A stretch of 64,000 nucleotides of DNA from an uncultured Candidatus Saccharibacteria bacterium (GTDB lineage Bacteria > Patescibacteriota > Minisyncoccia > Phycocordibacterales > UBA918): contig CAYGKO010000001.1 in assembly GCA_964350735.1 (NCBI GenBank), positions 18,134 through 82,133 on the forward strand, read 5' to 3'. Of the stretch, positions 6,355-58,821 are shown piece by piece. Each line of letters starts with the position of its first letter. Within the stretch, counting starts at the first letter, position 1. Below the pieces are notes generated by a model, which worked only from the letters and a program-made list of their open reading frames with translations, searched no databases and was not told the origin of the DNA. Made by a program: the position numbers and the translations under genes.

Positions 6355-6377
6355 ACCTTTCAATCGATTGAAAGGTT
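6354..6377. promoter_or_regulatory. 24-bp perfect palindrome aacctttcaatcgattgaaaggtt (site 2)
   Basis: Immediately after the stop codon of the TrpR-like gene, between convergent 3' ends. May act as an operator and/or terminator. Confidence 0.45.
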
Positions 6378-7002
6378 ACAAGATGTGTTCTTTTTCTAGA
6401 GATTGTTTCACTCGTTCAAAAATTAAACGATGTCCTTCAGCATTAGGGTGGTCACCGTCATATGTAAGTTCTGCAACTCTTTCACCAAACAGACCTTGCA
6501 TAGGTACAAAATGAACCCCATGTTCTCTTACCAATTCTTGTAGAGCTTTGTCATACAGATCACCATCAGCATCTAATGCGGCATGTCCTTCATACCAAGG
6601 CATTGGGTTTAACTGTGATTCATCTGAATCATACAAGCCTAAAAACACTATCGTCCCAAATGGTTTGGTAATGCCAATCATTCGCTCGCAGTTTTCTTTA
6701 AAGCGATCGATTGGTACCTGGCATTCGTTAGTCTCAAGATTGCGTACACTATCATTACCTCCAGTCTCAAAAATAATCAAATTCTTATCCTCTGCCCGAA
6801 AATACAGTTCATGTTCTAAACGCTTGACGATCCCATCACTCGTATCTCCTGACACACCAAGATTAAATACTGCGTGATAATCATTATGATTTTGCTCAGC
6901 GACCCGTGGGCCATATTCTAGAAATAACCGATTTACCCAACCTCCTTTTTCTGTATCGTCAAAACCCTGCGCGATACTTGTTCCAAAAACAATAATATTC
7001 AT
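6376..7002 (-). CDS. SGNH/GDSL-family hydrolase
   Basis: Block I GTSIAQG, block III GGND and block V DGDHP are characteristic of SGNH hydrolases. Confidence 0.65.
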   Translation of the reverse strand: MNIIVFGTSIAQGFDDTEKGGWVNRLFLEYGPRVAEQNHNDYHAVFNLGVSGDTSDGIVKRLEHELYFRAEDKNLIIFETGGNDSVRNLETNECQVPIDRFKENCERMIGITKPFGTIVFLGLYDSDESQLNPMPWYEGHAALDADGDLYDKALQELVREHGVHFVPMQGLFGERVAELTYDGDHPNAEGHRLIFERVKQSLEKEHIL

Positions 7003-7004
7003 AT

Positions 7005-7658
7005 CTATGATTCAAGTGGTGGGAGATGATTAATAAATTCAAGCTTATCCATCTCACCATTGTATTTGGTTATGGTGCCGACTTCAACTGAGTAGTCTTC
7101 GTGGGATTGGCGATCTTTTCCATCGAGAAGTGGAAGGATCGCTCGTAGGCAGCCGTGGTGTGTCACCACCACTAATTGATCACCTGGTTCAGCTGCTTCG
7201 ACCATCAGAGTGAGAACTCCGAACAAGCGGTCTTCCATCATCTGCCACGACTCGCCTTCTGGCGGTGTAAACGCATATCTTTCAGCAAAAGTCATCTCAC
7301 TGAGTTGTTCTGAAAGTGTTATCCAGGTGTAGTTACTGTACTTACCCCAATCGCGCTCAACCAGACGATCACTCTCGAGCGCCTCCACACCAGTAGCGCC
7401 AATAATTGCGGCAGCAGTCTCATTAGTGCGAGAGCGGAATGAGGTATAGATTGTTTTGATTGGTGAGTGAAGTACAGCGAAGTATTTTCCAATTGCTTTA
7501 GCCTGCTCTTTTCCAAGTGCGGTAAGCGCCGTATCCTGACAAACCAAACAATGCTTCCCCAGCGTATTCCCGTCACTTTGGCCATGACGTACAAAGTAAA
7601 TACTGATATTTTTCTTTTTAGCGAGAGCTGCTTTAAATAAATCGTATCCCATACACAA
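7005..7658 (-). CDS. Histidine phosphatase (phosphoglycerate-mutase-like) family protein
   Basis: The RHGQSDGN motif near the N-terminus is the catalytic RHG signature. 217 aa, encoded directly downstream of metG. Confidence 0.7.
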   Translation of the reverse strand: MCMGYDLFKAALAKKKNISIYFVRHGQSDGNTLGKHCLVCQDTALTALGKEQAKAIGKYFAVLHSPIKTIYTSFRSRTNETAAAIIGATGVEALESDRLVERDWGKYSNYTWITLSEQLSEMTFAERYAFTPPEGESWQMMEDRLFGVLTLMVEAAEPGDQLVVVTHHGCLRAILPLLDGKDRQSHEDYSVEVGTITKYNGEMDKLEFINHLPPLES

Positions 7659-7834
7659 ATAATTATGACGTGCCCCAAATTACAGAAACTGCCGCAGGAG
7701 CGGCAATTTCTGTACGACATGACTGGATAAAATGAGGGGCGTTAAAACCATTGGTTGACCCCCAACCTTCTGTTTCCCCTTTAATTGCTGAATATTTCAG
7801 ACAACACATATTCGGGCCATTATACACAGACCTA

Positions 7835-9277
7835 CTATTCTGGCAATCGACTAAAGAGATTGGCTGGTTTCTGGTTTTTCAGGACTGATTCTTTAATAAT
7901 TACATTAGCTTCGGGCATAATTGGGTAGAGATAGCGACCAATGAGGTACAAATCATGAGCTAATTCTGCAATAATTTTTTGAGCGGCTGGTTTATCCTCT
8001 TTTACGAGCTTAAACGGTTCGGTCTCAGCAATCTTTTCATCGAGGGCCTGCACGAGGCTCCAGACAAAATCACAGGCCCCCTGGAAATCGTAGCGATCAA
8101 GCGCATCGAGGTAGACCTGATCAAACCCGGCTCGGTCTGGCTTTTCAATTGCCGCATCGAGATGCGTCTCGGCCATTTTCATAATACGGGCCGTGAGATT
8201 CCCCAGGCCATTTACTAAGTTGGCGGTGTAGTATTCGTCCATTTTCTCCCAAGTGAGATCTGAATCATCAACTGGATGTACGTGTCGAAGCAAGATATAG
8301 CGCGTCGCGTCAGTGCCATATTTTTCTACCAACTCATACGGAGAAATCACATTCCCAATACTCTTACTCATTTTCTGCCCCCCACTGTTAATGAAGCCAT
8401 GGTAATTCACCTGATCAGTCGCTGCGACGCCGGCGCTCTTCAGCATCGCTTGCCACATAATCGACTGGAAACGCACTTGGTCTTTCCCAGCTAGTTGCAG
8501 CGTGTGGCCCTCGGTCCAGAATTTTTTAAAATCCCCACCTTCCTCTGGCCACCCTAGAGTAGAGATGTAGTTAGTCAGCGCATCAAACCACACGTACATC
8601 ACTTGATCATCATCACCTGGCACTGGCACTCCCCAGTCCATGCGACTTTTCTGGCGAGAGATAGAAAAGTCTTCGAGGCCTCCCTTCACAAACGTAATCG
8701 CTTCTTCGCGACGCCACTCTGGCGTCACTACTTCCGGTTGACTAAGATACTCTTCAAGATATGCCTGATAGTTTGAAAGTTTGAAGAAATAATTCTCTTC
8801 TTCCACCTCCTCTACTGGCTTCTTATGGATCAAACAACACTTGTTCTCATCAAGTTCATCTTCTTTGTAGTACACCTCACACCCAACGCAGTATAGTCCG
8901 GTATAGGACTTCTTATAAATATCTCCAGCCGCATCACAGTGACGCCAAATCTCCTGACAAGCCGCTTTATGATCAGTATCAGTGGTACGAATAAAGTTGT
9001 CATACGAAAGATTTAATGCTTCTTTCAAGCGATTGAACTCACCAGCAAAGTGATCAACGTACGCTTGCCGATCTTTCCCTTCCTCATCGGCTTTCTGAGC
9101 AATCTTTTGGCCGTGTTCATCAGTTCCTGTCGTAAAGAACACTTCATTACCTGACACATGCCGCCAATAGCGAGCCAGCGTATCAGCCTGAACCACTTCT
9201 AAACCAAAGCCAATATGCGGGTCGGCGTTTACGTACGGCAATGTAGTGGTTATATATCGAGCTTGTTTGTCTGTCAT
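7835..9277 (-). CDS. metG: Methionyl-tRNA synthetase (short form)
   Basis: HIGH-type motif PYVNADPHIGF, KMSKS motif and CxxC...C zinc knuckle. 480 aa. Confidence 0.9.
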   Translation of the reverse strand: MTDKQARYITTTLPYVNADPHIGFGLEVVQADTLARYWRHVSGNEVFFTTGTDEHGQKIAQKADEEGKDRQAYVDHFAGEFNRLKEALNLSYDNFIRTTDTDHKAACQEIWRHCDAAGDIYKKSYTGLYCVGCEVYYKEDELDENKCCLIHKKPVEEVEEENYFFKLSNYQAYLEEYLSQPEVVTPEWRREEAITFVKGGLEDFSISRQKSRMDWGVPVPGDDDQVMYVWFDALTNYISTLGWPEEGGDFKKFWTEGHTLQLAGKDQVRFQSIMWQAMLKSAGVAATDQVNYHGFINSGGQKMSKSIGNVISPYELVEKYGTDATRYILLRHVHPVDDSDLTWEKMDEYYTANLVNGLGNLTARIMKMAETHLDAAIEKPDRAGFDQVYLDALDRYDFQGACDFVWSLVQALDEKIAETEPFKLVKEDKPAAQKIIAELAHDLYLIGRYLYPIMPEANVIIKESVLKNQKPANLFSRLPE

Positions 9278-9457
9278 AGTAAAATCTACTCTATCATACA
9301 GCTTAAATAAAAAAAGCGGGCTACCGTGCCATAAGTAGCCCTCCCTTGACCGCTAATCCTAACTGGAAGTAAACGTCCAGCTAGCTACTGCCTCTCCGAG
9401 AGAAACGCTGCCGGCACAAACGAAGCATTTTGCAAACAAGGTTTACTAAAACTACGC

Positions 9458-13575: not shown

Positions 13576-14109
13576 CTAGATTTCTTCAAAAATAAGATTC
13601 TCCGCGTCTTTTCGCACCTTTAGTGGATCAAACAATTTCGCGTGCATACAAATTGCTATCCGTGCTTCGGTAGTATTAAGCAGAATGCCAAGCGCTGCCC
13701 CCAGATTAATCGGCGCATCGCTACCAAGCACGGTCCACGGGAACATCGATCCGGTAATCAGAATTTGACTACCAGCTTTAATATCGTCACTCAGATGATC
13801 AACCAAATACTTGCCTGTTTCTGGCATAGTATACGTCCCGTGTGTCAGGATAAACTTTCGTACTCCAGCAGCATACTGCTTTTCAATATCGCGAACCATA
13901 GCCGCTCGGTCTTCTTCGGCAACATCACGACTATCTTTATGACAGACATTTGTTTCAGTATACTTCGCGTGAACTTTCAAACTTTGGGTAAGAAACTTAT
14001 CCAAGTTAATCATGTCTGGGAACATCTCAGCCAGTAGACCAATTTCGGCATACTCTGGAATACAACCACCAATAGTCCCACCCGTTTTTAAATGATGAAC
14101 AGTTTCCAT
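13576..14109 (-). CDS. Asparaginase/glutaminase N-terminal-domain-like protein
   Basis: HLKTGGTIGG and THGTYTM match the asparaginase family TGGTIAG and HGTDTM signatures. Only the N-terminal domain is present (177 aa). Confidence 0.5.
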   Translation of the reverse strand: METVHHLKTGGTIGGCIPEYAEIGLLAEMFPDMINLDKFLTQSLKVHAKYTETNVCHKDSRDVAEEDRAAMVRDIEKQYAAGVRKFILTHGTYTMPETGKYLVDHLSDDIKAGSQILITGSMFPWTVLGSDAPINLGAALGILLNTTEARIAICMHAKLFDPLKVRKDAENLIFEEI

Positions 14110-14110
14110 A

Positions 14111-17100
14111 TTATTGTTTCTGGAATGAAACGGTTAAAGAATGCTCACCAGCAACCACCTCTTCTCCTTCCGTTCGGTCAAACACGATCTCGTCTGCCCC
14201 GACGGTCTTTTGAATTTCAGCCCTAAAGGTTTCTACCACGGCTTCCCCACCATCGGAAGCTTGGACGGTGAGCACAATCCGGTCACTGGCTTCGAGCCCA
14301 GCTTGCTTGCGCATATTTTGCACGGCTCGGATAAACTCGCGGGCATCACCTTCAGTCTGGAGCTCCGGCGTGATGGTTGTATCGAGTACGACTATCTCGG
14401 CAAGGCCGGTATCAACAACTACATCTTTCACGTTCATTTCGTCAGCAATGATTTGTCGATACACTTCGTCCACTTCAGTTTGAATTGTGAGCAGACGAAG
14501 GGGTTGACGAACCTTCATCCCGGCCTTGGTACGTGCCTCAAGCGCGGCAGTAACGACTTCACGCACGGTTTGCATAGTGGCGATTATCTCAGCCTCCACT
14601 TCTCCTGCCTCTGGCCAGGCACTGAGATGCACACTTTCCGCCTGATCATCAGATCGAATCGCCCGCCAGAGATACTCAGCATAAAACGGCATACTTGGCG
14701 CCATTAGATGAGCCAACGTCTCGAGCGTGTAGCGCAAGGTAGCAATCGCTGCTGTACGATCCTCAACATCCCCTCCCTTGAGCCGATCTCGTGAGCGGCG
14801 CAGATACCACACGGATAAATCATCTACCAGGTCAGTAATTGGCCGCGTCGCTTTATCGAGCTCGTAGTTCTTAAAGCCCGCCGTGATCTCAGTGGTCGCT
14901 TCTGCGACCCGCGCCAGCATCCAACGATCCAACACATGAGTCGAATCTGATGCAGCTACTGTACCGTCGGCAAACATCTGGTACATCGCCAACACATTGT
15001 GCAATCGGCCAATGTTCTTTCGCTGTAGTTCAGTTACTTCTTTCTCAGAGAAGTTCAAATCCTCCCCTTTAATGATTGATGATGACAATAGGTAAAAACG
15101 CATCGCATCTGCTCCCTGTCGTTCAACCAGCTCTACCGGATCAGGATAGTTCTGTAGTGACTTACTCATCTTCTTACCATCTTCTGCTAAGACAAGACCA
15201 TTGGTAATCACATTCTTAAATGGTGACTTCCCAAATAAGGCGACGCCGAGCACGGTCAATGAGTAGAACCAGCCACGGGTTTGGTCCACTGCTTCGGAAA
15301 TAAAGTCAGCGGGGAATCGTACTCCATCTGCCATATTGGCGATATCAAGATTTTCAAATGGGTAGTGAGTTTCCGCATACGGCATCGAGCCACTCTCAAA
15401 CCAACAGTCAAACACATCCGGCACCCGTTCGAGCTGTACGCCGTCCTCTTCAAGGACCACATCATCAATATACGGTCGATGGAAATCGAGCTCGTATTTG
15501 TCGTTGTGCGGCAACGGCGCAAAGTCGAGCTCCCGGACTTCCGCATTCGCAAAACGCTTGCCATCAGCATCATGGTCAAAATCAGTTTCAGCCAACACGC
15601 TGCCGTGCGCGACAGCCGCTAGCATTCGCAGTGGTGAATTATGTGACACGATCAAAATCGTCTCCCCTTCATGAGCGGCTTCAATGTCATACAAGAATGA
15701 CCCCATGCGATCACGAACCGATGCCCATGACTCACCACCAGTTGGTGCACAATCACACCACTGTGCTCCGCTCGCCACAAAGGCTTGGTACTCAGCGTTG
15801 GGCTTACCCTCAAGCTCACCGAGTTGGATTTCTCCAATCCTCTCGTCATACACAAGAGCATCGTCTCCAAGACCCAAACCAGCACGCACCAACTCAGCTG
15901 TCGCCTTGGTGCGCTCAAATGGTGAGGCGATGATCTTCGTCACACCAGCGTCTTTAAGATGTTCGAGGGCTGAGTCAATCTGCTTCTTCCCCTTCTCAGT
16001 CAGTGGGTTAGCTCCAGCGATATCAGTCTGTACCACATCAGCGGCATTACTCTCACTCTCACCGTGGCGCATGGTAAAGAAGGTGTTGCCACGCTTTGGT
16101 ACGTAGACCTGCAGCTCGGCTAAAGAACCGAAGACTTTAAACGCTTTTGTTTCGGAATTTCGCCAGATCGGTAGCGGTGCTCCCCAGTAGCGTTGCCGGC
16201 TCACCGCCCAGTCACGAGCGCCTTCCAGCCACTTACCAAAGCGGTTCGTGCCGACATGCTCTGGCACCCACTTCACTTTATTATTTTCAGCCACCAGCTG
16301 ATCCTTGATCTTCGTCACCTCCACAAACCACGACGTGGTGGCGTAGTTCAAGAGTGGTGTATCACAACGCCAACAGTGCGGGTAGCTGTGCGTGATATTT
16401 TCTTTCTTCAAAAGTCGACCGTTTGCCTTCAGGGCTTTCACAATCTCGATATCAGCATCAAGGTGTGTCACTCCGGCTTCGTCATCATCTTTTGGTTTTA
16501 CGAGCTGTCCCGCGAAGTCAGTGATAAAGTCCTTAAAGTGTCCGGCTTCATCGACGTGGTGCACGATTGGTACGTTGTGCTCTTGCGCCAGACGCATATC
16601 GTCTTCACCAAAGGCTGGCGCTAAGTGCACCGCTCCCGTTCCTTCTTCGCCCAACTCAACGTAGTCAGCATGCAGAATCTGCCAGGCGTTTTCTTTACCA
16701 GCAAAGTCTTCTTCCTTCAGCCACGGGAATGGGGGTTCGTAACGTTGGCCGACTAATTCGGCTCCGGACAGTTCTCCAATCACTTCATACTCTAGGCCAT
16801 CAAGTTGCGACAAGCGCTCTTTCGCCAGGATTACAACTTCACTGTCTGCTTCAGTGGTGACACGCACCTTCGCATAGACATAGTCTTTATGCACAGCAGC
16901 CGCTAAGTTCCCTGGCATTGTCCATGGCGTGGTCGTCCACACCAAAAGTGACGCGTTGTCAGGGTCATCGAGTAGCGGCAGCTTCACTGTAATGGCGATG
17001 TCTTTAATATCTTTGTAGCCTTGGTTGACCTCAAAGTTCGACAACGTCGTCCCACACCGTGGACACAGATGCATCGTTTTGAAGCCTTCGTACACCAAAC

Positions 17101-17650
17101 CTTTCTCATGCAGCTGCTTAAAGACCCACCACACACTTTCGGTGTAGGTACTATCCATCGTCTTGTAGTCATCGTCCATGTCAACGAACCGTCCCATCTG
17201 CGGAATGATCCGACGCCAATCATCAGCGTACTCCATCACCGTGTCCCGGGCCTGTTCGTTGAAGTTCTTAATGCCGTACTCCTCAATGTCGCGCTTCGTC
17301 GCTAGACCAAGCTTCTTCTCGATCAGGTTCTCAAGCGGCAAGCCATGACAATCCCACCCCCACTTCCGCCGGACACGGTAGCCATTCATGGTCCAAAAGC
17401 GTGGCACCGCGTCTTTAATCGTCCCCGCTAAAATATGTCCGTAGTGCGGCAAGCCAGTCGCAAACGGCGGCCCATCATAAAAAACAAAATCCCCGACCGG
17501 CTCATTGCCCGCTGGAGTTTCTAAACTCTTTTTAAATACATCATGCTCCTGCCAAAACGCTAGTATCGTTTCTTCACGCAGCGCTACCTCACTCTTTTCA
17601 GTTGTTTCTATTTTAGTATTCATATTGTCTTTTGTATGCGTATCAGGCAT
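14111..17650 (-). CDS. ileS: Isoleucyl-tRNA synthetase (type 2-like) with inserted histidine phosphatase domain
   Basis: Carries the PPFATGLPHYGH (HIGH) motif, WTTTPWT editing domain, YPHCWRC and KMSKS. The 1179 aa length is explained by an inserted domain of about 190 aa. Confidence 0.9.
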   Translation of the reverse strand: MPDTHTKDNMNTKIETTEKSEVALREETILAFWQEHDVFKKSLETPAGNEPVGDFVFYDGPPFATGLPHYGHILAGTIKDAVPRFWTMNGYRVRRKWGWDCHGLPLENLIEKKLGLATKRDIEEYGIKNFNEQARDTVMEYADDWRRIIPQMGRFVDMDDDYKTMDSTYTESVWWVFKQLHEKGLVYEGFKTMHLCPRCGTTLSNFEVNQGYKDIKDIAITVKLPLLDDPDNASLLVWTTTPWTMPGNLAAAVHKDYVYAKVRVTTEADSEVVILAKERLSQLDGLEYEVIGELSGAELVGQRYEPPFPWLKEEDFAGKENAWQILHADYVELGEEGTGAVHLAPAFGEDDMRLAQEHNVPIVHHVDEAGHFKDFITDFAGQLVKPKDDDEAGVTHLDADIEIVKALKANGRLLKKENITHSYPHCWRCDTPLLNYATTSWFVEVTKIKDQLVAENNKVKWVPEHVGTNRFGKWLEGARDWAVSRQRYWGAPLPIWRNSETKAFKVFGSLAELQVYVPKRGNTFFTMRHGESESNAADVVQTDIAGANPLTEKGKKQIDSALEHLKDAGVTKIIASPFERTKATAELVRAGLGLGDDALVYDERIGEIQLGELEGKPNAEYQAFVASGAQWCDCAPTGGESWASVRDRMGSFLYDIEAAHEGETILIVSHNSPLRMLAAVAHGSVLAETDFDHDADGKRFANAEVRELDFAPLPHNDKYELDFHRPYIDDVVLEEDGVQLERVPDVFDCWFESGSMPYAETHYPFENLDIANMADGVRFPADFISEAVDQTRGWFYSLTVLGVALFGKSPFKNVITNGLVLAEDGKKMSKSLQNYPDPVELVERQGADAMRFYLLSSSIIKGEDLNFSEKEVTELQRKNIGRLHNVLAMYQMFADGTVAASDSTHVLDRWMLARVAEATTEITAGFKNYELDKATRPITDLVDDLSVWYLRRSRDRLKGGDVEDRTAAIATLRYTLETLAHLMAPSMPFYAEYLWRAIRSDDQAESVHLSAWPEAGEVEAEIIATMQTVREVVTAALEARTKAGMKVRQPLRLLTIQTEVDEVYRQIIADEMNVKDVVVDTGLAEIVVLDTTITPELQTEGDAREFIRAVQNMRKQAGLEASDRIVLTVQASDGGEAVVETFRAEIQKTVGADEIVFDRTEGEEVVAGEHSLTVSFQKQ
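15590..16110 (-). other. Phosphoglycerate-mutase-like histidine phosphatase domain inserted within IleRS
   Basis: FFTMRHGESESN ... SHNSPLRMLAAVAHG lies in frame between the WGAPLPIW and LDFHRPYIDD segments of IleRS. Confidence 0.55.
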
Positions 17651-32642: not shown

Positions 32643-32776
32643 TACATATATAGTATCACTGGAAACTTAAGCTATTCAAATATTTCCATAATCAGAAACA
32701 GGGTTGCGTGGGCGTCAAGGCTGTGGCCCGGGTGTCAAATGCTAAAATAAACGTATTAATTCCTAAGCCCCTACCT

Positions 32777-34135
32777 ATGAGCACTATCGCTGCTATCACC
32801 CACACTCGCCAAAGTCTTAAAAACGGCGGCCAAGTTGTTGTCCTCAACACTGACGCTACTATCAACGCTGAATCTGAAGCCATGCTCCAGGCGCTGCACT
32901 CCCGCTCCACTGAAGGGATTGATGGGCACCTCGAGATCTTAGCTGAGAAAGGATCAGAGAAATTCATGTCGACCTTCTATGTCGGCTACGGCCACAAATC
33001 AATTGGTGACTGTGGGAGCGCTACCCTCTTCATTGAAGGTGTGTCGATGTTGGCGGCTAAAGCGATCCAAGACTGGAAGCTCTACTCGGGCCAAGAATCA
33101 TCAACCCGCTACATCGACTTTGCCGAACAAGCCTTCATGAATCCAGCTGGTTCGACCGAGGGTGAAACGATCGTAGAAACGTGGAGAACGTTCTACCTCA
33201 AAGCAGTGAACGAAATGAAAGACGTCCTCAAAGAACGGTACCCAATACAAGATGGAGAAAAGGAAGGCGTATACAACAAAGCGATCGCGGCCCGGGCTTT
33301 TGATACCACGAGAGGCTTCCTCCCCGCTGGCGCCACCACCAACCTCGCCTGGCACGGCAACCTGCGACAGTTCGCCGACAAAGTTGCCCAGCTCCGTCAT
33401 CACCCCCTCGCTGAAGTACGCGAAATTGCTGAAGCCACTGAGCAAGCCCTTCTCATTGCCTTCCCCAACTCCTTCACCGACAAGCGCTACGAAACATCAG
33501 AGGAATACACCAAGCTGGTGATGAACACCCACTACTACCATCACGATGTCGACTGCCCGAAGCTGAAGCTGGTGCGTAACGGGATTGATACCGACCGATT
33601 GGCCACTCACCGAGAAGTACTCGAGCAGCGCCCACAATACGCCGAACTACCAAAGTCATTAGGAACGCTCGGTGAAGTAGAGTTTGACTACCTGCTCGAC
33701 TTTGGATCATTCCGAGACATTCAACGACACCGCGCCATCACGCAGCGCATGCCGCTTCTGACCTCAGACATTGGCTTCAACGCTTGGTACCTTGACGAAC
33801 TTTCTGACAGTCTCAAAACTGAAGCGACGGCCCTCATTGCTGACCTCAAAGCTAAGACCGACGCTCTCGATATCTCTCCTGAAGCCAAGCAGTACTACGT
33901 CCCGATGGGTTACAACGTCTCGTGTAACTTCTCCGGTGACCTACCAGCGGTGGTATACATGGTAGAGCTACGCGCCACTCGCTTCGTCCACCCAACCCTT
34001 CGCTACCAAGCGGCTGACATGGCCAACATCCTCAGCGACACCTTCGACAGCGCCGGCCTCCAGATCCACCTCGATGCTGACATCGACCGCTTCGATGTGA
34101 AACGCGGCGAGCACGATATTACTGCTAAAGAATAA
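32777..34135 (+). CDS. thyX: Flavin-dependent thymidylate synthase ThyX, fused pseudo-dimer
   Basis: Second half has the catalytic RHR motif (FRDIQRHRAITQRMP). First half has the ThyX fold pattern (ATLFIEGVS...SGQESSTRY) but RHR is degenerate. About 450 aa from MSTIAAI. Confidence 0.7.
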   Translation: MSTIAAITHTRQSLKNGGQVVVLNTDATINAESEAMLQALHSRSTEGIDGHLEILAEKGSEKFMSTFYVGYGHKSIGDCGSATLFIEGVSMLAAKAIQDWKLYSGQESSTRYIDFAEQAFMNPAGSTEGETIVETWRTFYLKAVNEMKDVLKERYPIQDGEKEGVYNKAIAARAFDTTRGFLPAGATTNLAWHGNLRQFADKVAQLRHHPLAEVREIAEATEQALLIAFPNSFTDKRYETSEEYTKLVMNTHYYHHDVDCPKLKLVRNGIDTDRLATHREVLEQRPQYAELPKSLGTLGEVEFDYLLDFGSFRDIQRHRAITQRMPLLTSDIGFNAWYLDELSDSLKTEATALIADLKAKTDALDISPEAKQYYVPMGYNVSCNFSGDLPAVVYMVELRATRFVHPTLRYQAADMANILSDTFDSAGLQIHLDADIDRFDVKRGEHDITAKE

Positions 34136-39919: not shown

Positions 39920-41938
39920 TTATAGCTTTCTAATAACACCTGTGTTGGCATTAACTTCAATCTTATCCCCCGTTTTAATTTTACTCGTTGCTCCTTCTAC
40001 TCCAACCACGCACGGGATCTGTAACTCTCGAGCAACAATGGCCGCATGGGATAACATACCTCCTTGGTTTGTTATTATAGCAGCAGCTTTTCCACACGCA
40101 GCTATAATTTCAGGCACAGTTGAATCAACCACCAATACTTCACCTGCCCGTATCTCTTGCACAAGTTGACTCATTTCTTCAAAATTTGAGGCAGATACGT
40201 GAGCCACTCGTGCAATAGCTTGTACAACCCCCGGGAAGGCTGTTAGCCCAACCAAATCATCAGTGTCAGACTCATAGATGATATGCTCAACTTTTTCACC
40301 AGCGTGTTCGTGCAAGAGAACAAGTTCATCAAAATACATAACATAGCCTTTCCGTCGCTCGGCCAGTAACTCAGGGGTGATTCGTTGCGTAGGATTGTCA
40401 AATAGGTTGACTACCTCAGGCATTTTATACCACTGTAAATCCGACAGAGGAATAGAAAATATTTCTGATACCCACTGCAATAACTGCTTCATTAAGGCAT
40501 CATCTGTGTATCCAATCTGGTTGACCATTTTTCTCCCCCCTAATTTAAACTTTTCAAAATCACGAATAAAGTTTAGGTCCTCAGCTTTAGCTTCGTAAAT
40601 ACCATCAGTATAGAAAAATTCAGTAAAGCGGTATTGGGCCGATAATTCATCGACGGCATCCAAGTACGGCAACAGATTCGCTTTTGTGCACTCCATTTTT
40701 AAAGTCTGAAACGTATCCTGAACACTCTCATAAGACTGAAAAACATCTGATTTTAATTGCTGGTATGCAACTGCATCTAGATAGATTGATTTAGCTTTAG
40801 TTTTAGTTGCTTCTAATGCCCCTTTTAATATATAGCTTTTAAAAACACCGTTACTGTACGTCACCAACCCACCCAAGTCAGCAATATGAAACAGAAATCC
40901 GAAGGCAAAAAAATAACTAGTGGCGTCATCTATCTGAGTAAACTTTTGATACTCATCAAGATTAATGGCCCGTATCTCAGTTTGCGAATGCTTAATAGTT
41001 TGATTAAAAGTTGTAATTGGACGACTCTGTGTAACATATAAAATATCGTCAGCAAATACCCACTCAACATCACATGGCTCGTTAGTACTTACTTCGATTG
41101 ATCGCATCACTTTCGCAACTTCGCTAATTTCCATATCTGTTAAAACTCTTGATGTGGCTTCTTGATCTGACAAATCTCTCCACTCATTCCCGGTATCAGT
41201 TGAAAACAATCCTTTGGTTTTTGTGGCTATTTTTTCATCAATAATACTATTCGCGCCTTTCGCTACAACATAATTATCTGGTGTAATAACACCTGACACT
41301 ATTGCCTCGCCTAAACCGAAAGCTGCTTCAATGACCATTTCATCATAATTATTATTAACTGGATTTATAGAAAATCCTACACCCGATTTTTCACCTAAGA
41401 TCATCACTTGAACAACAACCGCCATTTTTAGAGACGTATTTAAAATATCATGCTGTGAACGATACATGAGCGCTTCAGCTGAGTACAGCGAGGACCAACA
41501 TTTTTTAACAGCTTCTAACAGATCATCTGACTGCACGTTCATATAACTTGAAAATTGCCCAGCCCAAGCAGCAGAACTACTATCCTCAACCGTAGCTGAA
41601 GATCGAACTGCAACAGCCACACTTCCTAGTGAATTATATGAATCAAAAATTTCTGTAATCAATTGTTTAGGAATAGCGCACCCTTGTATTACTTTCTGGA
41701 TATAGACCGCCTCTGCTCGTATTTGTTCAATCTGTGAGGGACTAGTAATTGAAAGAATGTGGTTAATTTCATTCTGAATATCCCTCGTAACCAACTCAAA
41801 TGCGTCTGTTTCTATTACAAAACCAGGTGGTACATTCACCCCCAAAGAAATAAGTTTTCCAAGCGAGTGGGCTTTTCCTCCGATTTCATTAATATCAGCA
41901 TTAGCTAATTCTGCGAGAGATCGCATATACATAGACAT
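39920..41938 (-). CDS. PEP-utilising-enzyme family kinase, rifampin-phosphotransferase-like architecture (ATP-grasp N-domain, unknown middle domain, swivel phospho-His domain)
   Basis: N-terminal PPDK_N/ATP-grasp (GGKAHSLGKL...GFVI). C-terminal mobile domain ITNQGGMLSHAAIVARELQIPCVVGV with the catalytic His. No C-terminal PEP/pyruvate TIM barrel. Confidence 0.6.
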   Translation of the reverse strand: MSMYMRSLAELANADINEIGGKAHSLGKLISLGVNVPPGFVIETDAFELVTRDIQNEINHILSITSPSQIEQIRAEAVYIQKVIQGCAIPKQLITEIFDSYNSLGSVAVAVRSSATVEDSSSAAWAGQFSSYMNVQSDDLLEAVKKCWSSLYSAEALMYRSQHDILNTSLKMAVVVQVMILGEKSGVGFSINPVNNNYDEMVIEAAFGLGEAIVSGVITPDNYVVAKGANSIIDEKIATKTKGLFSTDTGNEWRDLSDQEATSRVLTDMEISEVAKVMRSIEVSTNEPCDVEWVFADDILYVTQSRPITTFNQTIKHSQTEIRAINLDEYQKFTQIDDATSYFFAFGFLFHIADLGGLVTYSNGVFKSYILKGALEATKTKAKSIYLDAVAYQQLKSDVFQSYESVQDTFQTLKMECTKANLLPYLDAVDELSAQYRFTEFFYTDGIYEAKAEDLNFIRDFEKFKLGGRKMVNQIGYTDDALMKQLLQWVSEIFSIPLSDLQWYKMPEVVNLFDNPTQRITPELLAERRKGYVMYFDELVLLHEHAGEKVEHIIYESDTDDLVGLTAFPGVVQAIARVAHVSASNFEEMSQLVQEIRAGEVLVVDSTVPEIIAACGKAAAIITNQGGMLSHAAIVARELQIPCVVGVEGATSKIKTGDKIEVNANTGVIRKL

Positions 41939-45858: not shown

Positions 45859-47565
45859 TTAGTTCCCTGCTTCGGCATTCTCTTCTGAGCGGGCCAGCTT
45901 CTGTCGCGTGAGCTCTTGGGCGGCATTCATACTGTGCTGGTAGTAGAGTGTTTTTACACCACTCTTCCAGGCCTGTACGTACAGCGCATTGGTTTCCTTT
46001 GGAGTTACACTTGGCGGCACCATGATGTTAAGTGACTGACCTTGGTCGATATGTGGCTGTCGCTCCGCTGCACGGGCAATCACGACTGACTGGTCGACTT
46101 CAGCAAAAGTACGGAAGACGGCTTTTTCATTATCGTCGAGGAAGTCGAGGTGTTGGACTGATCCATCATTGTCCCGAATATCATTCCACACTTCTTTATC
46201 ATTTTTTCCTTTTTCTTCAAGAATCTCTTCGAGGAATGGGTTCTTGATCGTCACCTTTAGCTTCGCTACGTCTTTCACGTAACAGTTGCTCCAGACCGGC
46301 TCAATCCCTTGTGATACTTGTCCAAGGATAAATGCACTAGAAGTAGTTGGCGCAATCGCCATAGTAGTCGTGTGTCGGCGGCCATAGCCTTTAAGGATTT
46401 CGGGCTCACCAAACTCTTTAGCCATTTCAGCAGAAGCGGCGTGTGAACGTTCATGCATCAACTTAAAGACTTCTTCGTTGATCGCCTTCGCTTCATCACT
46501 ACCAAACGAGACACGCTTACTTTGCATCAATGAGTGATACCCAAGGACTCCGAGTCCAAGCGCGCGATTGGCTTTAGCAAAGTTGTATGGTCGTTCCATA
46601 AACTTAAACGCGAGTTGCTTGTCTTGCTCTTCACTATCACGCATCGCTTCTAGCTTATTGATGAAGTCAGTCATCACCGCTTCAAGGAAGTACGTCATGG
46701 TTTCTACCAAGTCACTGTCCTTCCAGTCATCATAGTGCAGCAGGTTGATTGAGGATAGACAACAGACAAACGACCACTCCTTACTGCTCGGCAACATAAT
46801 CTCACTACACACATTACTCGCGTAGATTGGAAGATTGTTGTCTTTATAGACATCGGGTCGCTGATCATTGGCGTTATCAATAAACATGATGTACGGGTAT
46901 CCAATTTCACCACGACGTTGAATAACCTTCGCCCAAATCGCTCGCTTAGCTTCATCACCCGCAATCATCGACTCCATCCATTCGTTGGTTACCGTCACGG
47001 CGTGATTGATCTTTTGGATCGGATTTCCTTCGGTACCAATATCGAGGAATTCTGAAATATCTGGGTGCTCAACTGGCAAGTAGGCTGCGAACACACCGCG
47101 GCGAGTAGCTCCTTGACTCACCACGTCAAGAATCTTCTCAAACAGCTGCATGAAGTGCACCGGACCAGACGAAGTACCGTTTTGGGTAATTGACTCACCC
47201 CGAGCACGCAGATCACCAAAGTAGGCAGAACAGCCGCCTCCATACTTACTCATCATTCCTACTTCTGCTTCAGTATGCAGAATGTTGGCCATATCGTCCG
47301 CCACGTACGAACCAAAACAACTGATCGGCAGTCCCCGCTTCAGCCCGAAGTTTGCCCATACTGGTGTGGCTAGAGAAATCCAGCCCTTACTCATGTAGTC
47401 TTCAAATTTTTCAGCAAACCCGTCTTTACCGAGTGTCTCCTCTGCAAATTCTGCAATGGCACGCACTCGCTCTTCAGTGGTTTGGCCATCCACTAAATAT
47501 CCTCGGGCCATAAAAGCTCGAGTGTTCTCGTTTACCCAATACCATGGTTCGCTTCGATTTGTCAT
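45859..47565 (-). CDS. nrdA: Ribonucleoside-diphosphate reductase alpha subunit, short form without ATP-cone
   Basis: Active-site SNVCSEIMLP (NxCxE) plus C-terminal Tyr/Cys region. At 568 aa it lacks the N-terminal ATP-cone. Confidence 0.85.
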   Translation of the reverse strand: MTNRSEPWYWVNENTRAFMARGYLVDGQTTEERVRAIAEFAEETLGKDGFAEKFEDYMSKGWISLATPVWANFGLKRGLPISCFGSYVADDMANILHTEAEVGMMSKYGGGCSAYFGDLRARGESITQNGTSSGPVHFMQLFEKILDVVSQGATRRGVFAAYLPVEHPDISEFLDIGTEGNPIQKINHAVTVTNEWMESMIAGDEAKRAIWAKVIQRRGEIGYPYIMFIDNANDQRPDVYKDNNLPIYASNVCSEIMLPSSKEWSFVCCLSSINLLHYDDWKDSDLVETMTYFLEAVMTDFINKLEAMRDSEEQDKQLAFKFMERPYNFAKANRALGLGVLGYHSLMQSKRVSFGSDEAKAINEEVFKLMHERSHAASAEMAKEFGEPEILKGYGRRHTTTMAIAPTTSSAFILGQVSQGIEPVWSNCYVKDVAKLKVTIKNPFLEEILEEKGKNDKEVWNDIRDNDGSVQHLDFLDDNEKAVFRTFAEVDQSVVIARAAERQPHIDQGQSLNIMVPPSVTPKETNALYVQAWKSGVKTLYYQHSMNAAQELTRQKLARSEENAEAGN

Positions 47566-47610: not shown

Positions 47611-48924
47611 TTAGAATAAGTCGGCACTAGTGACACTTTGCTGTCGTTTGTTGTAATTGATTGATCGCTTGTCGAAGAAGTCAACGTGCTTGGTTGCAAT
47701 CACCTCATCATCAAACCATTCAGTATTCTCAAGTAGAGCGTCGTCTACACCAAAGACGGCGTCCATACCAATTCCTTTCAGAGATTTGTTGAGACGATGT
47801 TTGATAAACTCTTTTACTTCAGCGGCTGGCATGAAGTCGAGCTCCCCTGCTTCAAAGATCCAGTCGACAATCGCACTTTCAGCTTGATAGGCTTCGATAC
47901 ACATAGTACGCACCATTTCTCGATGTGAATCATCAAACCATTCAGGATGCTCACTCTTAATGATATTGATCAAGTCAGTCCCGAACAAACCGTGGATCTG
48001 CTCTTCTTTACTCGTTGCTTCTACTGCGTTACTCATTCCTTTAAATAGGTTCTTGTGCTTGTTAAAGCTCATCATGATAAGGAACTGTGAGAATAGCGAT
48101 ACGTGCTCAATAAAGAGTGAGAACAGTAGTACTGACTGTGTATACTCGCGATTTTCATTCGTCTTGCCGAGAGTAAGCACCTTGTCGAGGTACGCGATTC
48201 GCTTTTGGATCACTGGCACTTCGTGCAGTGTCTTAAAATCATCATTGAGACCAAGAATCTCGAGCAAGTGTGCGTACGCATCCATGTGCCGTACTTCTGA
48301 TTCGGCAAAGGTGAATCCTACCGCGCCAATTTCTGGCTTCGGCATCTTTTGATACAAACTACCCCAGAAGGTCTTCACCGATACTTCGATCTGTGCAATC
48401 GCGAGCATGGTGCGCTTGATGGCATTACGCTCTGATTCAGTCACGTTCACTTTGAAGTCACCAATATCACCAGTGAAGTTGAATTCCGTGTGGATCCAGT
48501 ATGAGTGCCGGACAGCATCGACATATGATGCGAGTTCTGGGTACTCGTATGGCTTGAGATTCGTTCGTTTATGGAAGATGTCACGTTCCCGCATCTGCTT
48601 CCGCTGCGCTCGGTAGATGATGTACGACTTGGCAGTCTCGAAGTAGTCGAGCTCCATCAAAGCCGCCTCAACGAGGTCTTGGACTTCTTCAACGGTTGGA
48701 TAGCCGTCTTTACACATCTTAGCTTTGACGTCGTCAGCTGGCGCGGTGCCAGCTTGCACGCACATTGCGACGGCTTTCTCATGCACGCAGTCGGCTACTT
48801 TTTGAGCATCTGCATCAGTACCTTCTTTGGTTTCCGAAAAAGCTTTGGCGACAGCTTTGGCGATCTTGGCAGCCGTGAACGGCACCATTGATCCATCTCG
48901 TTTACGAATTTGGCTAATTTCCAT
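47611..48924 (-). CDS. nrdB: Ribonucleotide reductase beta subunit with N-terminal ATP-cone
   Basis: Start at MEISQIRKRDGSMVPFTAAKIAKAV (ATP-cone signature). This is followed by a ferritin-like di-iron domain (ESEVRHMDAY ... EEQIHG). Confidence 0.8.
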   Translation of the reverse strand: MEISQIRKRDGSMVPFTAAKIAKAVAKAFSETKEGTDADAQKVADCVHEKAVAMCVQAGTAPADDVKAKMCKDGYPTVEEVQDLVEAALMELDYFETAKSYIIYRAQRKQMRERDIFHKRTNLKPYEYPELASYVDAVRHSYWIHTEFNFTGDIGDFKVNVTESERNAIKRTMLAIAQIEVSVKTFWGSLYQKMPKPEIGAVGFTFAESEVRHMDAYAHLLEILGLNDDFKTLHEVPVIQKRIAYLDKVLTLGKTNENREYTQSVLLFSLFIEHVSLFSQFLIMMSFNKHKNLFKGMSNAVEATSKEEQIHGLFGTDLINIIKSEHPEWFDDSHREMVRTMCIEAYQAESAIVDWIFEAGELDFMPAAEVKEFIKHRLNKSLKGIGMDAVFGVDDALLENTEWFDDEVIATKHVDFFDKRSINYNKRQQSVTSADLF

Positions 48925-49582
48925 AGGGTTATTAAGAACGTGACAAGGTTTATAAATAAGTAATCTATTCTTCGCATTCAGTATCTGAACGCTTGTCTGG
49001 TGTAGTACCCGGTACAGACCGTTGTGTCGCGATCCACAACAATCTGTACCGGGAACCAAACCGGTCATCAAGGACATCCTCCCCTTCAGCTGAGGGCAGT
49101 AAAGAGACACGAGGGCAGACTATGCCGACGTGAACAGGATGTTCATAGATAATCTCTCACAAAAGTGATTGGTGGTGTGGAGTACATACGGTTGTATGGC
49201 CGTATGCGCATGCAGAAGCTAGTCGTTGTACAAGCTCTGAACAATCATTTTTAAGAAAGATCGTTACATTCATTGCATTCAATAGTGAGATAAAGGCAAC
49301 AGCATGTGCGATACATGACTCCAAAATGTAGAGCGCGTGCCTTATCTCCGACACACACGTAGGAGTAACTCAACGTGTGATATTTAGATAGTAGCGCTGC
49401 TGCGCGGATTTGTAAAATAGGGCTAAGGTTGGTCCTTTTGGGGAAAAATACTGCACATAAATGCAAAATAGCCTGAAGAATGGGGCTGAATTTTCTGCCT
49501 CAACATCTAGCCCTATTCTATAACCTGTGGATAGCCACGCACTCTTTGCTTGCGCAAGTATTTAAGGGTGTGGTGTGGTGCA

Positions 49583-51737: not shown

Positions 51738-51813
51738 GGCGACTATAGTATAACGGTTAGTGCACCGGTTTGTGGTACCGGCAGTTCGGGTTCGATTCCC
51801 GGTAGTCGCCCCA
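51738..51813 (+). tRNA. tRNA-His (anticodon GTG) with encoded G-1 and 3' CCA
   Basis: Manual fold: G-1:C73 extra pair, 7-bp acceptor gcgacta/tagtcgc, D-arm gtat/gtgc, anticodon stem ccggt/accgg with loop ttGTGgt, T-arm cgggt-ttcgatt-cccgg (hand-derived loop boundaries, not cross-checked), CCA encoded. Confidence 0.85.
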
Positions 51814-58816: not shown

Positions 58817-58821
58817 ATAAT

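What the first reader, a model, noticed from the sequence alone, without database searches (positions are those of the whole stretch)
15590..16110. Histidine phosphatase (PGM-like) domain inserted into isoleucyl-tRNA synthetase, with a stand-alone paralog next to metG
IleRS (1179 aa) contains an in-frame insertion of about 190 aa beginning FFTMRHGESESN (the catalytic RHG signature). It lies between the WGAPLPIW segment and the LDFHRPYIDD/DVFDCWFESG segment of the synthetase. A separate 217-aa RHG-family phosphatase (7005-7658) is encoded directly downstream of MetRS. This recurrent pairing of a histidine-phosphatase fold with aminoacyl-tRNA synthetases suggests a tRNA-linked or nucleotide-linked phosphatase activity. 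One candidate is removal of a 2',3'-cyclic or 3'-phosphate from tRNA ends. This is not a described IleRS feature that I know of.
Basis: partly seen in the sequence, partly recalled or inferred. Interest (0 to 1): 0.7.

Follow-up and report, generated by a model that had tools for sequence, protein, structure and literature searches.

The report
Phosphatase domain built into isoleucyl-tRNA synthetase
The enzyme that loads isoleucine onto tRNA in this ultra-small (Patescibacteria/CPR) bacterium carries a complete, apparently active phosphatase domain spliced into one of its surface loops; the same arrangement is conserved in hundreds of related bacteria and recurs in valyl-tRNA synthetase, and I found no paper describing it.

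Summary
The 1179-aa type-2 IleRS (14111-17650, minus strand) carries a ~205-aa insert (aa 515-720; 15491-16108) that matches Pfam His_Phos_1 at E=3e-32. The insert replaces a ~10-residue loop in the CP3 subdomain. It is not a chimera: the 120 closest full-length homologs (65-100% identity) all carry it. At least 25 Patescibacteria species genomes have it. The catalytic Arg-His, Arg and His are kept in 280 of 280 IleRS-borne copies.

The "paralog next to metG" is only 25% identical to the insert. It is kept near metG only in the closest relative, so that pairing is incidental.

Related phosphatase domains sit at four or more sites in IleRS and two in ValRS, in one to four copies. In one lineage the phosphatase is a separate gene overlapping the start of an insert-less ileS. 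In one protein it is fused to TsaC.

Best reading: a bifunctional synthetase whose active PhoE-like phosphomonoesterase is functionally coupled to class Ia aminoacylation. The substrate is unknown. A phosphorylated tRNA acceptor end is my leading but unproven candidate. No paper found describes this. Both parts are known families; the combination is a new variant.

The parts
14111..17650 (-). ileS: type-2 (eukaryote-like) isoleucyl-tRNA synthetase, 1179 aa, HYGH at aa 69-72 and KMSKS at aa 827-831
   Evidence: ORF. Pfam and NCBIfam TIGR00392 at 881 bits against a cutoff of 621. AF2 model pLDDT 87.8. Best PDB matches are yeast IleRS 8WND, P. megaterium IleRS2 8C8V and T. thermophilus 1ILE.
15491..16108 (-). 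Inserted histidine-phosphatase module (aa 515-720) including its two linkers
   Evidence: Delimited against insert-less IleRS P0023 and against yeast and Candida IleRS, whose flanks align to Sc 433-491 and 498-613. pLDDT is 93-98 in the full-length model.
15587..16072 (-). Pfam His_Phos_1 (PF00300) match, aa 527-688
   Evidence: E=3.2e-32, 112 bits. The domain-only model has pLDDT 92. Foldseek TM is about 0.75 to GpgP 4QIH, PspA 4IJ5, TIGAR and PhoE 1H2E.
16064..16069 (-). Codons for Arg528-His529 (RHG motif; His529 is the predicted phospho-acceptor nucleophile)
   Evidence: Invariant in 280/280 IleRS-borne copies and 80/80 ValRS-borne copies.
15911..15913 (-). Codon for Arg580 (phosphate pocket)
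   Evidence: Kept in 280/280 IleRS-borne copies.
15830..15832 (-). Codon for Glu607 (predicted general acid/base)
   Evidence: Kept in 274/280 IleRS-borne copies.
15641..15643 (-). Codon for His670 (second catalytic His)
   Evidence: Kept in 280/280 IleRS-borne copies. Replaced by Asn in 10/80 ValRS-borne copies.
16109..16201 (-). N-terminal half of the host CP3 subdomain (aa 484-514), preceded by the CP2-CP3 linker ARDWAVSRQRYWG (aa 478-490)
   Evidence: Aligns to yeast IleRS 433-491. CP3 is Sc 459-526, and the linker lines the tRNA-CCA/reveromycin pocket (PMC7955072).
15419..15490 (-). C-terminal half of CP3 (aa 721-744: LDFHRPYIDD...), leading into DVFDCWFESG
   Evidence: Aligns to yeast IleRS from residue 498 onward. 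Many fused homologs keep the CxxC...CxC zinc knuckle here; the window protein has lost the Cys residues.
15500..15511 (-). Conserved exit linker P-H-N-D (aa 714-717), specific to site-1 insertions
   Evidence: P714 in 36/43, H715 in 22/43 and N716 in 32/43 sequences. Absent from insert-less IleRS and from copies at other sites.
7005..7658 (-). Stand-alone histidine phosphatase, 217 aa. It is a distant relative of the insert and not part of the IleRS feature.
   Evidence: Pfam His_Phos_1 E=3.6e-34. 25% identity to the insert. Near metG only in L084.
7835..9277 (-). metG (MetRS, 480 aa), without any phosphatase insertion
   Evidence: Pfam tRNA-synt_1g E=2.5e-96.

Best explanation
The gene encodes a bifunctional enzyme. 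It is a complete type-2 isoleucyl-tRNA synthetase. A small PhoE/GpgP/PspA-like branch-1 histidine phosphatase of about 190 aa has been inserted at the tip of the peripheral CP3 subdomain, together with two short linkers that appear to be rigid.

Shown:
- The insertion is old, widespread in Patescibacteria and under purifying selection.
- The whole phospho-histidine catalytic set (Arg528, His529, Asn535, Arg580, Glu607, His670) is conserved.
- The synthetase motifs are intact.

Inferred:
- The module is a working phosphomonoesterase. His529 attacks a terminal phosphate, Glu607 protonates the leaving group, and water releases phosphate.
- The phosphatase is functionally coupled to class Ia aminoacylation rather than being a passenger. 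The same phosphatase subfamily has been placed repeatedly in IleRS and ValRS. It also occurs as a gene overlapping the start of ileS.

Most speculative step: the substrate is a phosphorylated ligand met during the charging cycle. My leading candidate is a tRNA acceptor end blocked by a 3'-phosphate or 3'-pyrophosphate. The base of CP3 adjoins the pocket where the CCA end enters, and the phosphatase would clear such an end before charging.

My probabilities:
- real conserved insertion: 0.97
- catalytically active: 0.85
- functionally coupled to the synthetase: 0.6
- substrate is a tRNA end: 0.2-0.25

The confidence value given for this explanation (0.55) refers to the statement up to and including functional coupling, not to the tRNA-end substrate.
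For: - Domain identity and intact residues.
- Not an artefact: all 120 best full-length homologs (65-100% identity, 1158-1234 aa, from NCBI, ENA, JGI and Logan) carry PF00300. 25 GTDB species genomes have it. Of the 145 best 50%-identity cluster representatives matching the insert, 101 are fused to a synthetase: 97 to IleRS and 4 to ValRS.
- Position: the flanks align to yeast IleRS 433-491 and 498-613, inside CP3 (Sc 459-526). The CP2-CP3 linker lines the tRNA-CCA pocket (PMC7955072; PMC7191050).
- Model: pLDDT 87.8, pTM 0.82, with confident linkers.
- Coupling, other sites in IleRS: phosphatase copies occur at positions 514/721, about 731/739, about 761/779 and 894/907.
- Coupling, ValRS: two insertion sites. 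73 of the 120 ValRS closest to P0351 carry one to three copies, mostly at the CP3-equivalent site. The partial ValRS P0242 has four.
- Coupling, split form: in L087 the order is ArgRS, then a 188-aa phosphatase gene overlapping by 7 nt the start of an insert-less ileS, then RecO.
- The specificity 'cap' (aa 608-640) is poorly conserved while the phosphate pocket is invariant. This fits recognition of the phosphate rather than of the leaving group.
- tRNA 3'-end pyrophosphorylation with isoacceptor specificity is a known process (bioRxiv 10.1101/2021.04.30.441581; PMC11559606).
Against: - No activity was measured.
- No coordinates were available, so the distance from His529 to the CCA path is unknown.
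- To my knowledge, no histidine phosphatase is known to act on RNA ends.
- The insert is acidic (pI 4.7, net charge -15) and shows no conserved basic patch.
- Up to four copies, and a version that works as a separate protein (L087), do not require a precise geometry.
- Only IleRS and ValRS carry the domain, whereas toxins that block tRNA ends hit other tRNAs.
- One protein fuses the same phosphatase to TsaC/YrdC. TsaC makes an adenylate and releases pyrophosphate, but it does not handle the CCA end. That points towards a small shared ligand instead.
- CP3 is a structurally variable and probably permissive site (PMC7191050).
- The insert evolves faster than the catalytic core (48% against 81% identity).
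- Some ValRS copies have lost His670 or Glu607.
Confidence: 0.55

Rival explanations
1. Product or by-product removal. The phosphatase hydrolyses a small phosphate compound common to adenylate-forming enzymes, such as pyrophosphate, AMP or another nucleotide phosphate. It does so close to where the compound is made, which pulls amino-acid activation forward.
For: - IleRS, ValRS and TsaC/YrdC (P0338) all use an amino acid plus ATP to make an adenylate plus pyrophosphate.
- The variable cap with an invariant phosphate pocket fits a very small substrate.
- Copy-number increase to 2-4 fits a dosage effect.
- The nearest solved relative by sequence is PhoE. From my own knowledge it is a broad-specificity phosphatase.
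Against: - To my knowledge, histidine phosphatases are not known pyrophosphatases.
- Peribacteria, which have the fusions, are reported to encode an inorganic pyrophosphatase (PMC4736985).
- The other aminoacyl-tRNA synthetases seen here (MetRS, ArgRS and a class II enzyme in the window) have no such domain.
- The TsaC fusion is a single cluster and was not found again.
- Dephosphorylating AMP would waste energy.
Confidence: 0.2
2. Passenger enzyme. An ordinary metabolic phosphatase has lodged in a permissive surface loop of an essential, constitutively expressed gene and works independently of the synthetase. The later copies arose by duplication within the gene.
For: - CP3 differs in fold among T. 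thermophilus, S. aureus and Candida IleRS (PMC7191050), so it tolerates change.
- The structural neighbours are all small-metabolite phosphatases.
- The insert evolves faster than the core.
- There are no extra conserved residues beyond the generic family set.
Against: - The same subfamily entered two different synthetases and at least six positions.
- It also occurs as a gene overlapping ileS.
- 101 of the 145 nearest cluster representatives are fused to a synthetase, and only one is fused to a different host, TsaC.
- No phosphatase gene lies within 10 kb of 55 insert-less ileS loci, so neighbourhood by chance is rare.
Confidence: 0.2
3. Regulatory or protective module. The domain binds or removes a phosphate on a protein. 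For example, it could reverse an inhibitory phosphorylation of the synthetase by a HipA-like kinase toxin. Alternatively it senses a phospho-metabolite and modulates charging.
For: - From my own knowledge, the superfamily includes protein phosphatases (SixA, Sts-1, PGAM5), and HipA and HipT kinases inactivate class I synthetases (GltX, TrpS).
- Some ValRS copies keep the Arg-His-Arg pocket but lack His670 or Glu607. That pattern is expected for a binding module.
Against: - Catalytic residues are invariant in all 280 IleRS copies.
- There is no kinase partner in the conserved neighbourhood.
- There is no match to defence-system models.
Confidence: 0.1
4. Non-catalytic structural replacement of CP3, for example for folding, dimerisation or docking.
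For: The insertion replaces the loop, and in many lineages the zinc knuckle, of CP3. The linkers are predicted to be rigid.
Against: The full catalytic set is conserved down to about 30% identity. A scaffold does not need this.
Confidence: 0.04
5. Artefact: an assembly chimera or a wrong reading frame.
For: None found.
Against: - One uninterrupted 3540-nt ORF.
- The same composition as the host gene.
- An identical protein is in NCBI (P0121).
- More than 120 independent homologs from four data sources share the same architecture.
Confidence: 0.01

Closest known systems
Type-2 (eukaryote/archaea-like) IleRS, e.g. Priestia megaterium IleRS2 (8C8V), yeast IleRS (8WND, 7D5C), T. thermophilus IleRS (1ILE)
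   Same: The same domain order: Rossmann fold, CP core, CP1 editing domain, CP2, CP3, anticodon-binding domain and a DUF5915-type C-terminus. HIGH and KMSKS are present. Foldseek TM normalised to the target is 0.77-0.87. CP3 sits in the same place, and many fused homologs keep the T. thermophilus-type zinc knuckle.
   Different: CP3 carries an extra enzyme domain of about 205 aa between the residues equivalent to yeast 491 and 498. None of the solved IleRS chains matched has anything there.
Small branch-1 histidine phosphatases: PhoE/YhfR (1EBB, 1H2E), GpgP Rv2419c (4QIH), PspA (4IJ5), TIGAR (3DCY), CobC (6NRU)
   Same: The same fold (TM about 0.75) and the same catalytic Arg-His...Arg...Glu...His set. 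The size is about 190-210 aa, and the long dPGM-specific insertion is absent.
   Different: Those are free-standing enzymes with known small substrates. This one is embedded in a synthetase, scores below every NCBIfam equivalog cutoff, and has an unconserved cap region.
Bifunctional RNase H / acid phosphatase (NCBIfam NF005567, PRK07238; Rv2228c type)
   Same: A CobC/PhoE-like histidine phosphatase fused to an enzyme that acts on nucleic acid. The insert matches the phosphatase part at E=1e-21.
   Different: That is an end-to-end fusion, not an insertion, and the partner is different. The score is 77.7 bits against a cutoff of 326.
IleRS with an N-acetyltransferase domain (NCBIfam NF040702, ileS_w_GNAT)
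   Same: A precedent for an IleRS that carries an extra catalytic domain. It is known only from the model's name.
   Different: The extra domain is different (GNAT). The window protein scores 317 bits against a cutoff of 1999, so it is not a member.
CP1 editing domain of class Ia synthetases
   Same: A second hydrolytic active site inserted in the connective-polypeptide region of the same enzyme. The tRNA 3' end moves to it.
   Different: CP1 is universal in IleRS, ValRS and LeuRS and hydrolyses aminoacyl esters. The phosphatase is lineage-specific, sits in CP3 and would hydrolyse phosphate monoesters.

Membership tests
Isoleucyl-tRNA synthetase, type 2 | Scores above the curated ileS model cutoff | tested here: met
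   TIGR00392 scores 881 bits against a cutoff of 621.
Isoleucyl-tRNA synthetase, type 2 | Class I signature motifs HIGH and KMSKS | tested here: met
   HYGH at aa 69-72 and KMSKS at aa 827-831.
Isoleucyl-tRNA synthetase, type 2 | Type-2 C-terminal region and overall fold | tested here: met
   DUF5915 E=3.7e-22. The best structural matches are type-2 and eukaryotic IleRS; type-1 enzymes rank lower.
Isoleucyl-tRNA synthetase, type 2 | Isoleucine-specific aminoacylation activity | not testable with these tools
   Needs an enzyme assay.
Histidine phosphatase superfamily, branch 1 (PF00300) | Scores above the Pfam gathering threshold | tested here: met
   112 bits against a cutoff of 21.7, E=3.2e-32.
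Histidine phosphatase superfamily, branch 1 (PF00300) | Catalytic core: RHG His nucleophile, two Arg, second His, acidic proton donor | tested here: met
   R528, H529, R580, E607 and H670 are present and conserved across 280 IleRS-borne copies.
Histidine phosphatase superfamily, branch 1 (PF00300) | Alpha/beta fold of the family | tested here: met
   Domain model pLDDT 92; TM about 0.75 to 4QIH, 4IJ5 and 1H2E.
Histidine phosphatase superfamily, branch 1 (PF00300) | Phosphatase activity through a phospho-histidine intermediate | not testable with these tools
   Needs biochemistry with wild type and H529A.
Cofactor-dependent phosphoglycerate mutase (dPGM) | Scores above the dPGM equivalog cutoffs | tested here: not met
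   NF038349 scores 80.5 bits against a cutoff of 225. The insert did not reach E<=0.01 for the bacterial dPGM models (TIGR01258 pgm_1 and the PRK01295/PRK14115 type) that the stand-alone 217-aa gene hits weakly; only GpmB (NF002901) matched, at 49.8 bits against 261.
Alpha-ribazole phosphatase CobC | Scores above the TIGR03162 cutoff | tested here: not met
   The insert scores 75 bits and the stand-alone gene 91 bits, against a cutoff of 163.
RNA 3'-end healing phosphatases (T4 Pnk HAD type, Pnkp calcineurin type, 2H phosphoesterases) | Membership of one of those folds | tested here: not met
   The domain is a histidine phosphatase by Pfam and by fold. If it works on RNA ends, it would do so as a new enzyme type for that job.
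RNA 3'-end healing phosphatases (T4 Pnk HAD type, Pnkp calcineurin type, 2H phosphoesterases) | Activity on 3'-phosphate or 2',3'-cyclic phosphate RNA ends | not testable with these tools
   Needs assays with defined tRNA ends.
Mupirocin-resistance IleRS MupA/MupB; IleRS with GNAT | Scores above the exception-model cutoffs | tested here: not met
   Scores are 685, 667 and 317 bits against cutoffs of 1900, 1900 and 1999.

The most novel reading that the evidence does not exclude
The phosphatase is a third catalytic site of a class Ia synthetase. It takes the tRNA acceptor end and removes a blocking 3'-phosphate or 3'-pyrophosphate, left for example by toxSAS-type toxins or by nucleases, so that the same enzyme can then charge the tRNA. 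That would be tRNA end repair built into the charging enzyme, by a phosphatase fold not known to act on RNA.
Probability: 0.18. Interest if true: 0.9.

Novelty: new variant of a known kind. Interest (0 to 1): 0.66.

Why it matters
Aminoacyl-tRNA synthetases are among the most conserved enzymes known, and new catalytic domains inside their cores are rare. Here an apparently active phosphatase is embedded in IleRS across much of the Patescibacteria. Relatives of it are embedded in ValRS of Gracilibacteria and Peregrinibacteria.

If the two activities are coupled, this points to an unrecognised step in tRNA charging or tRNA-end maintenance in these reduced, host-dependent bacteria. That step is directly testable with one recombinant protein and an H529A mutant.

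There is also a practical consequence. NCBI names at least three of these IleRS proteins only "class I tRNA ligase family protein". The Pfam phosphatase hit may also be read as a phosphoglycerate mutase. Automated metabolic reconstructions of CPR genomes could therefore miss IleRS or ValRS, or wrongly credit a glycolytic step.

Tried and rejected
- Assembly chimera or frame error: rejected.
- The stand-alone gene as a close paralog, or as the donor of the insert: rejected. Identity is 25%. The insert's nearest relatives are other synthetase-borne copies.
- Conserved metG-phosphatase pairing: rejected.
- dPGM, CobC or PspA equivalog: all below cutoff.
- Defence-system component: no PADLOC match.
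- Pyrophosphatase substitute because CPR lack Ppa: weakened, since Peribacteria are reported to have one.
- Geometry of the phosphatase pocket relative to the CCA path: could not be done. Structure prediction returns no coordinates, and none are written to /data.
- AFDB fold search: library unavailable.
- Looking up the window's own contig through P0121: not on record.
- Finding more TsaC-phosphatase fusions: the metagenome scan returned only IleRS-borne or free phosphatases.
- Literature: seven full-text searches combining synthetase, histidine phosphatase or phosphoglycerate mutase, and CPR terms found nothing relevant.
- The neighbour-joining tree of IleRS is too poorly resolved to count gains and losses. 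It only shows that insert-bearing and insert-less enzymes are interleaved.
Full report
**1. What is in the window**

The ORF 14111..17650 (minus strand) encodes a 1179-aa protein.
- Pfam finds a class I synthetase catalytic domain split in two (tRNA-synt_1, E=9e-136).
- Between the halves lies a His_Phos_1 domain at aa 527-688 (E=3.2e-32). Anticodon_1 and DUF5915 follow.
- NCBIfam's ileS model scores 881 bits against a cutoff of 621.
- HYGH (aa 69-72) and KMSKS (aa 827-831) are intact.

A second His_Phos_1 protein of 217 aa (7005..7658, minus strand; E=3.6e-34) lies 176 nt downstream of MetRS (7835..9277).

**2. Limits and position of the insert**

An insert-less relative (P0023) reads ...FGSIAEIEKASGKKVADLHRPYIDD.... 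The window protein has about 205 residues (aa 515-720; window 15491-16108) where that relative has about ten.

Against solved structures, the flanks align to yeast IleRS residues 433-491 and 498-613, and to Candida IleRS 440-496 and 505-620. Published domain limits place these points inside the CP3 subdomain: yeast 459-526 (PMC7955072) and Candida 473-534 (PMC7191050).

The same papers add two relevant points.
- CP3 differs in fold among IleRS enzymes. It binds zinc in T. thermophilus.
- The CP2-CP3 linker (yeast 453-ARDWNVSRNRYWG-465; window 478-ARDWAVSRQRYWG-490) lines the pocket that receives the tRNA CCA end.

Many fused homologs keep the CxxC...CxC knuckle on either side of the insert. 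The window protein has lost those cysteines.

**3. Not an artefact, and not rare**

- The 120 best full-length homologs (65-100% identity, 1158-1234 aa) all carry PF00300. They come from NCBI, ENA, JGI and Logan, and one is identical to the window protein.
- An exhaustive profile-free search with the insert alone found 9352 cluster representatives at E<=1e-3 and 30 at E<=1e-30.
- Of the 145 best representatives, 101 have synthetase flanks: 97 IleRS and 4 ValRS.
They are labelled Paceibacteria, Nomurabacteria, Yanofskybacteria, Spechtbacterales, Peregrinibacteria/Peribacteria, and 'Saccharibacteria' or 'Gammaproteobacteria'. The last two are automated MAG labels, and some are probably wrong.
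- Insert-less CPR IleRS also exist, for example in Saccharimonadia and some Peribacteria.
- GC and GC3 of the insert equal those of the host gene.

**4. Is the phosphatase intact?**

In 43 diverse fused IleRS, R528, H529, R580, E607, E640 and H670 are invariant, and N535 is kept in 37. Over 280 IleRS-borne copies the counts are:
- R528, H529, R580 and H670: 280/280
- E607: 274/280

The insert is 48% identical on average to its homologs among the close relatives. The catalytic core is 81% identical and the C-terminal domains 51%. The segment that usually shapes specificity (aa 608-640) is not conserved.

Structure predictions:
- The full-length AF2 model has mean pLDDT 87.8 and pTM 0.82. The insert scores 93-98 and both linkers about 93.
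- The domain alone gives pLDDT 92.

Nearest solved relatives:
- By structure: GpgP Rv2419c, TIGAR, PspA, PhoE and Rv3214, at TM about 0.75.
- By sequence: PhoE, E=1.7e-13.

The insert is below the cutoff of every NCBIfam equivalog (dPGM, CobC, PspA, GpmB). It is therefore a generic small branch-1 histidine phosphatase and not a mutase.

**5. The stand-alone gene next to metG**

It is only 25% identical to the insert.

The gene order ArgRS-IleRS-RecO-DUF11 protein-class II synthetase-MetRS is conserved in many relatives. The phosphatase near MetRS, however, is seen only in the closest relative. That relative is L084 (IleRS 84% identical), where the order is MetRS, a 401-aa gene, then a 215-aa phosphatase. 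In L085 and L086 (72% identical), and in L008 and L010, MetRS is followed by TatD.

This pairing is a local feature of one lineage and is not evidence for a rule.

**6. The recurrent pairing is real, but lies elsewhere**

Phosphatase copies of the same subfamily (30-40% identical to each other) occur at several other positions. In window numbering, the IleRS positions are:
- about 731/739, inside the second half of CP3 (P0303, P0311, P0371, P0380);
- about 761/779, just after DCWFESGSMPYA (P0301, P0303);
- 894/907, between the KMSKS/stem-contact region and the anticodon-binding domain. P0301, P0354 and P0384 have it there as a second copy. L028 has its only copy there.

Tandem copies also occur.

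ValRS of Gracilibacteria and Peregrinibacteria carries the domain too. Of the 120 proteins closest to P0351, 73 have one to three copies. Most sit at the CP3-equivalent site between SRQxWWG and DTWFSS. Some sit after the QWF strand. The partial ValRS P0242 has four copies. In ValRS, 10 of 80 copies have Asn for His670 and about 23 lack Glu607.

Two further arrangements were found.
- In L087 the conserved ArgRS-IleRS-RecO context holds a separate 188-aa phosphatase gene. Its stop overlaps by 7 nt the start of an insert-less, zinc-knuckle-bearing ileS.
- P0338 is a TsaC/YrdC protein with the phosphatase at its C-terminus. That fusion was not found again.

None of 55 insert-less ileS loci has a phosphatase gene within 10 kb.

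**7. How it most likely works**

Shown: a complete synthetase and a complete histidine-phosphatase catalytic set in one polypeptide, conserved over deep divergence.

Inferred from the established mechanism of the family: His529 takes the phosphoryl group from a phosphomonoester, or from a terminal phosphate. Glu607 protonates the leaving group, and water regenerates the enzyme.

Inferred from the repeated, independent placements in two paralogous synthetases, and from the overlapping-gene version: the phosphatase is functionally tied to class Ia aminoacylation (my estimate 0.6).

What it acts on is open.
- I rank a blocked tRNA acceptor end first (about 0.2). Most insertion points lie in the connective-polypeptide region that frames the CCA entry. 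Phosphate-only recognition fits the variable cap. Isoacceptor-specific 3'-pyrophosphorylation of tRNA by toxSAS toxins is known.
- A small ligand shared by adenylate-forming enzymes, such as pyrophosphate or AMP, is about as likely (0.2). It is favoured by the TsaC fusion and by copy amplification. It is weakened by the reported Ppa in Peribacteria.
- A passenger enzyme in a permissive loop (0.2), a regulatory or protein-phosphatase role (0.1) and a purely structural role (0.04) remain possible.
- The acidic character of the insert (pI 4.7), and the absence of any known RNA-end histidine phosphatase, count against the tRNA idea.
It would need another enzyme first.

**8. Novelty**

Seven full-text searches found no description of a histidine phosphatase in any aminoacyl-tRNA synthetase. 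The library lacks most subscription journals, so this is not proof of absence.

The sequences are public but unremarked. NCBI names at least three of the 120 closest IleRS homologs only "class I tRNA ligase family protein".

Both parts belong to well-known families and pass their membership tests. The combination and its recurrence are new, so I rate it a new variant of a known kind, with interest 0.66.

**9. Limits**

- No coordinates were available, so the key geometric question could not be answered.
- The neighbour-joining tree is only indicative.
- Taxon labels of MAGs are as deposited.

Noticed in passing
L002:4537-7974 (GCA_027024305.1, JALVSO010000054.1) and L003: This phosphatase-bearing ileS is a single reading frame with ten in-frame TGA codons. 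Nine of them align with invariant Trp in 12 homologs. UGA therefore seems to encode Trp (code 4-like) in this CPR MAG, not Gly (code 25). Gene callers split the gene into five ORFs.
   Followed up: partly
L087:5995-6561 and 6555-9344 (JGI Ga0224495_10002294): A free 188-aa histidine phosphatase of the insert's subfamily lies between argS and an insert-less ileS. It overlaps the ileS start by 7 nt. This is a split version of the fusion.
   Followed up: yes
P0351, P0386-P0503 (ValRS of Gracilibacteria/Peregrinibacteria): 73 of the 120 ValRS closest to P0351 carry one to three histidine-phosphatase domains, mostly at the CP3-equivalent site. The partial ValRS P0242 has four. Some copies have Asn for the second catalytic His or lack the Glu.
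   Followed up: partly
P0338 (387 aa): A TsaC/YrdC (threonylcarbamoyl-AMP synthase family) protein has the same phosphatase subfamily fused at its C-terminus. It is a single cluster and was not recovered in the metagenome scan.
   Followed up: partly
L001:4337-7857 (ENA ERZ25039480 contig_65275, 733 kb): The syntenic phosphatase-bearing ileS is broken across three frames and called as four ORFs. This is either long-read frameshift errors or a pseudogene.
   Followed up: no
window 47611-49110 (-) and 45859-47565 (-): The ribonucleotide reductase small subunit carries an N-terminal ATP-cone (Pfam ATP-cone plus Ribonuc_red_sm). For the adjacent 568-aa large subunit, Pfam reported no ATP-cone match.
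   Followed up: no
window 39920-41938 (-): A 672-aa protein has a PPDK_N ATP-binding domain and a PEP-utilizers mobile domain. Pfam reported no C-terminal PEP/pyruvate-binding domain.
   Followed up: no
window 51757-53418 (-) and 58792-60696 (+): A large serine recombinase and a Z1-domain protein lie a few kb apart. This suggests an integrated mobile or defence island in the 50-61 kb region.
   Followed up: no
window 13576-14109 (-): A 177-aa protein with only the asparaginase N-terminal domain starts 2 nt after the ileS stop. It is not at this position in the close relatives L084-L086.
   Followed up: no
window 6376-7002 (-): A GDSL-family hydrolase follows the stand-alone phosphatase with a 2-nt gap. 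Together they separate metG from tatD, which are adjacent in relatives. A GDSL homolog lies downstream of ileS in L016.
   Followed up: no
window 32708-34135 (+): This ThyX-like protein has 475 aa, but the Thy1 domain covers only aa 68-253. The rest is unassigned.
   Followed up: no
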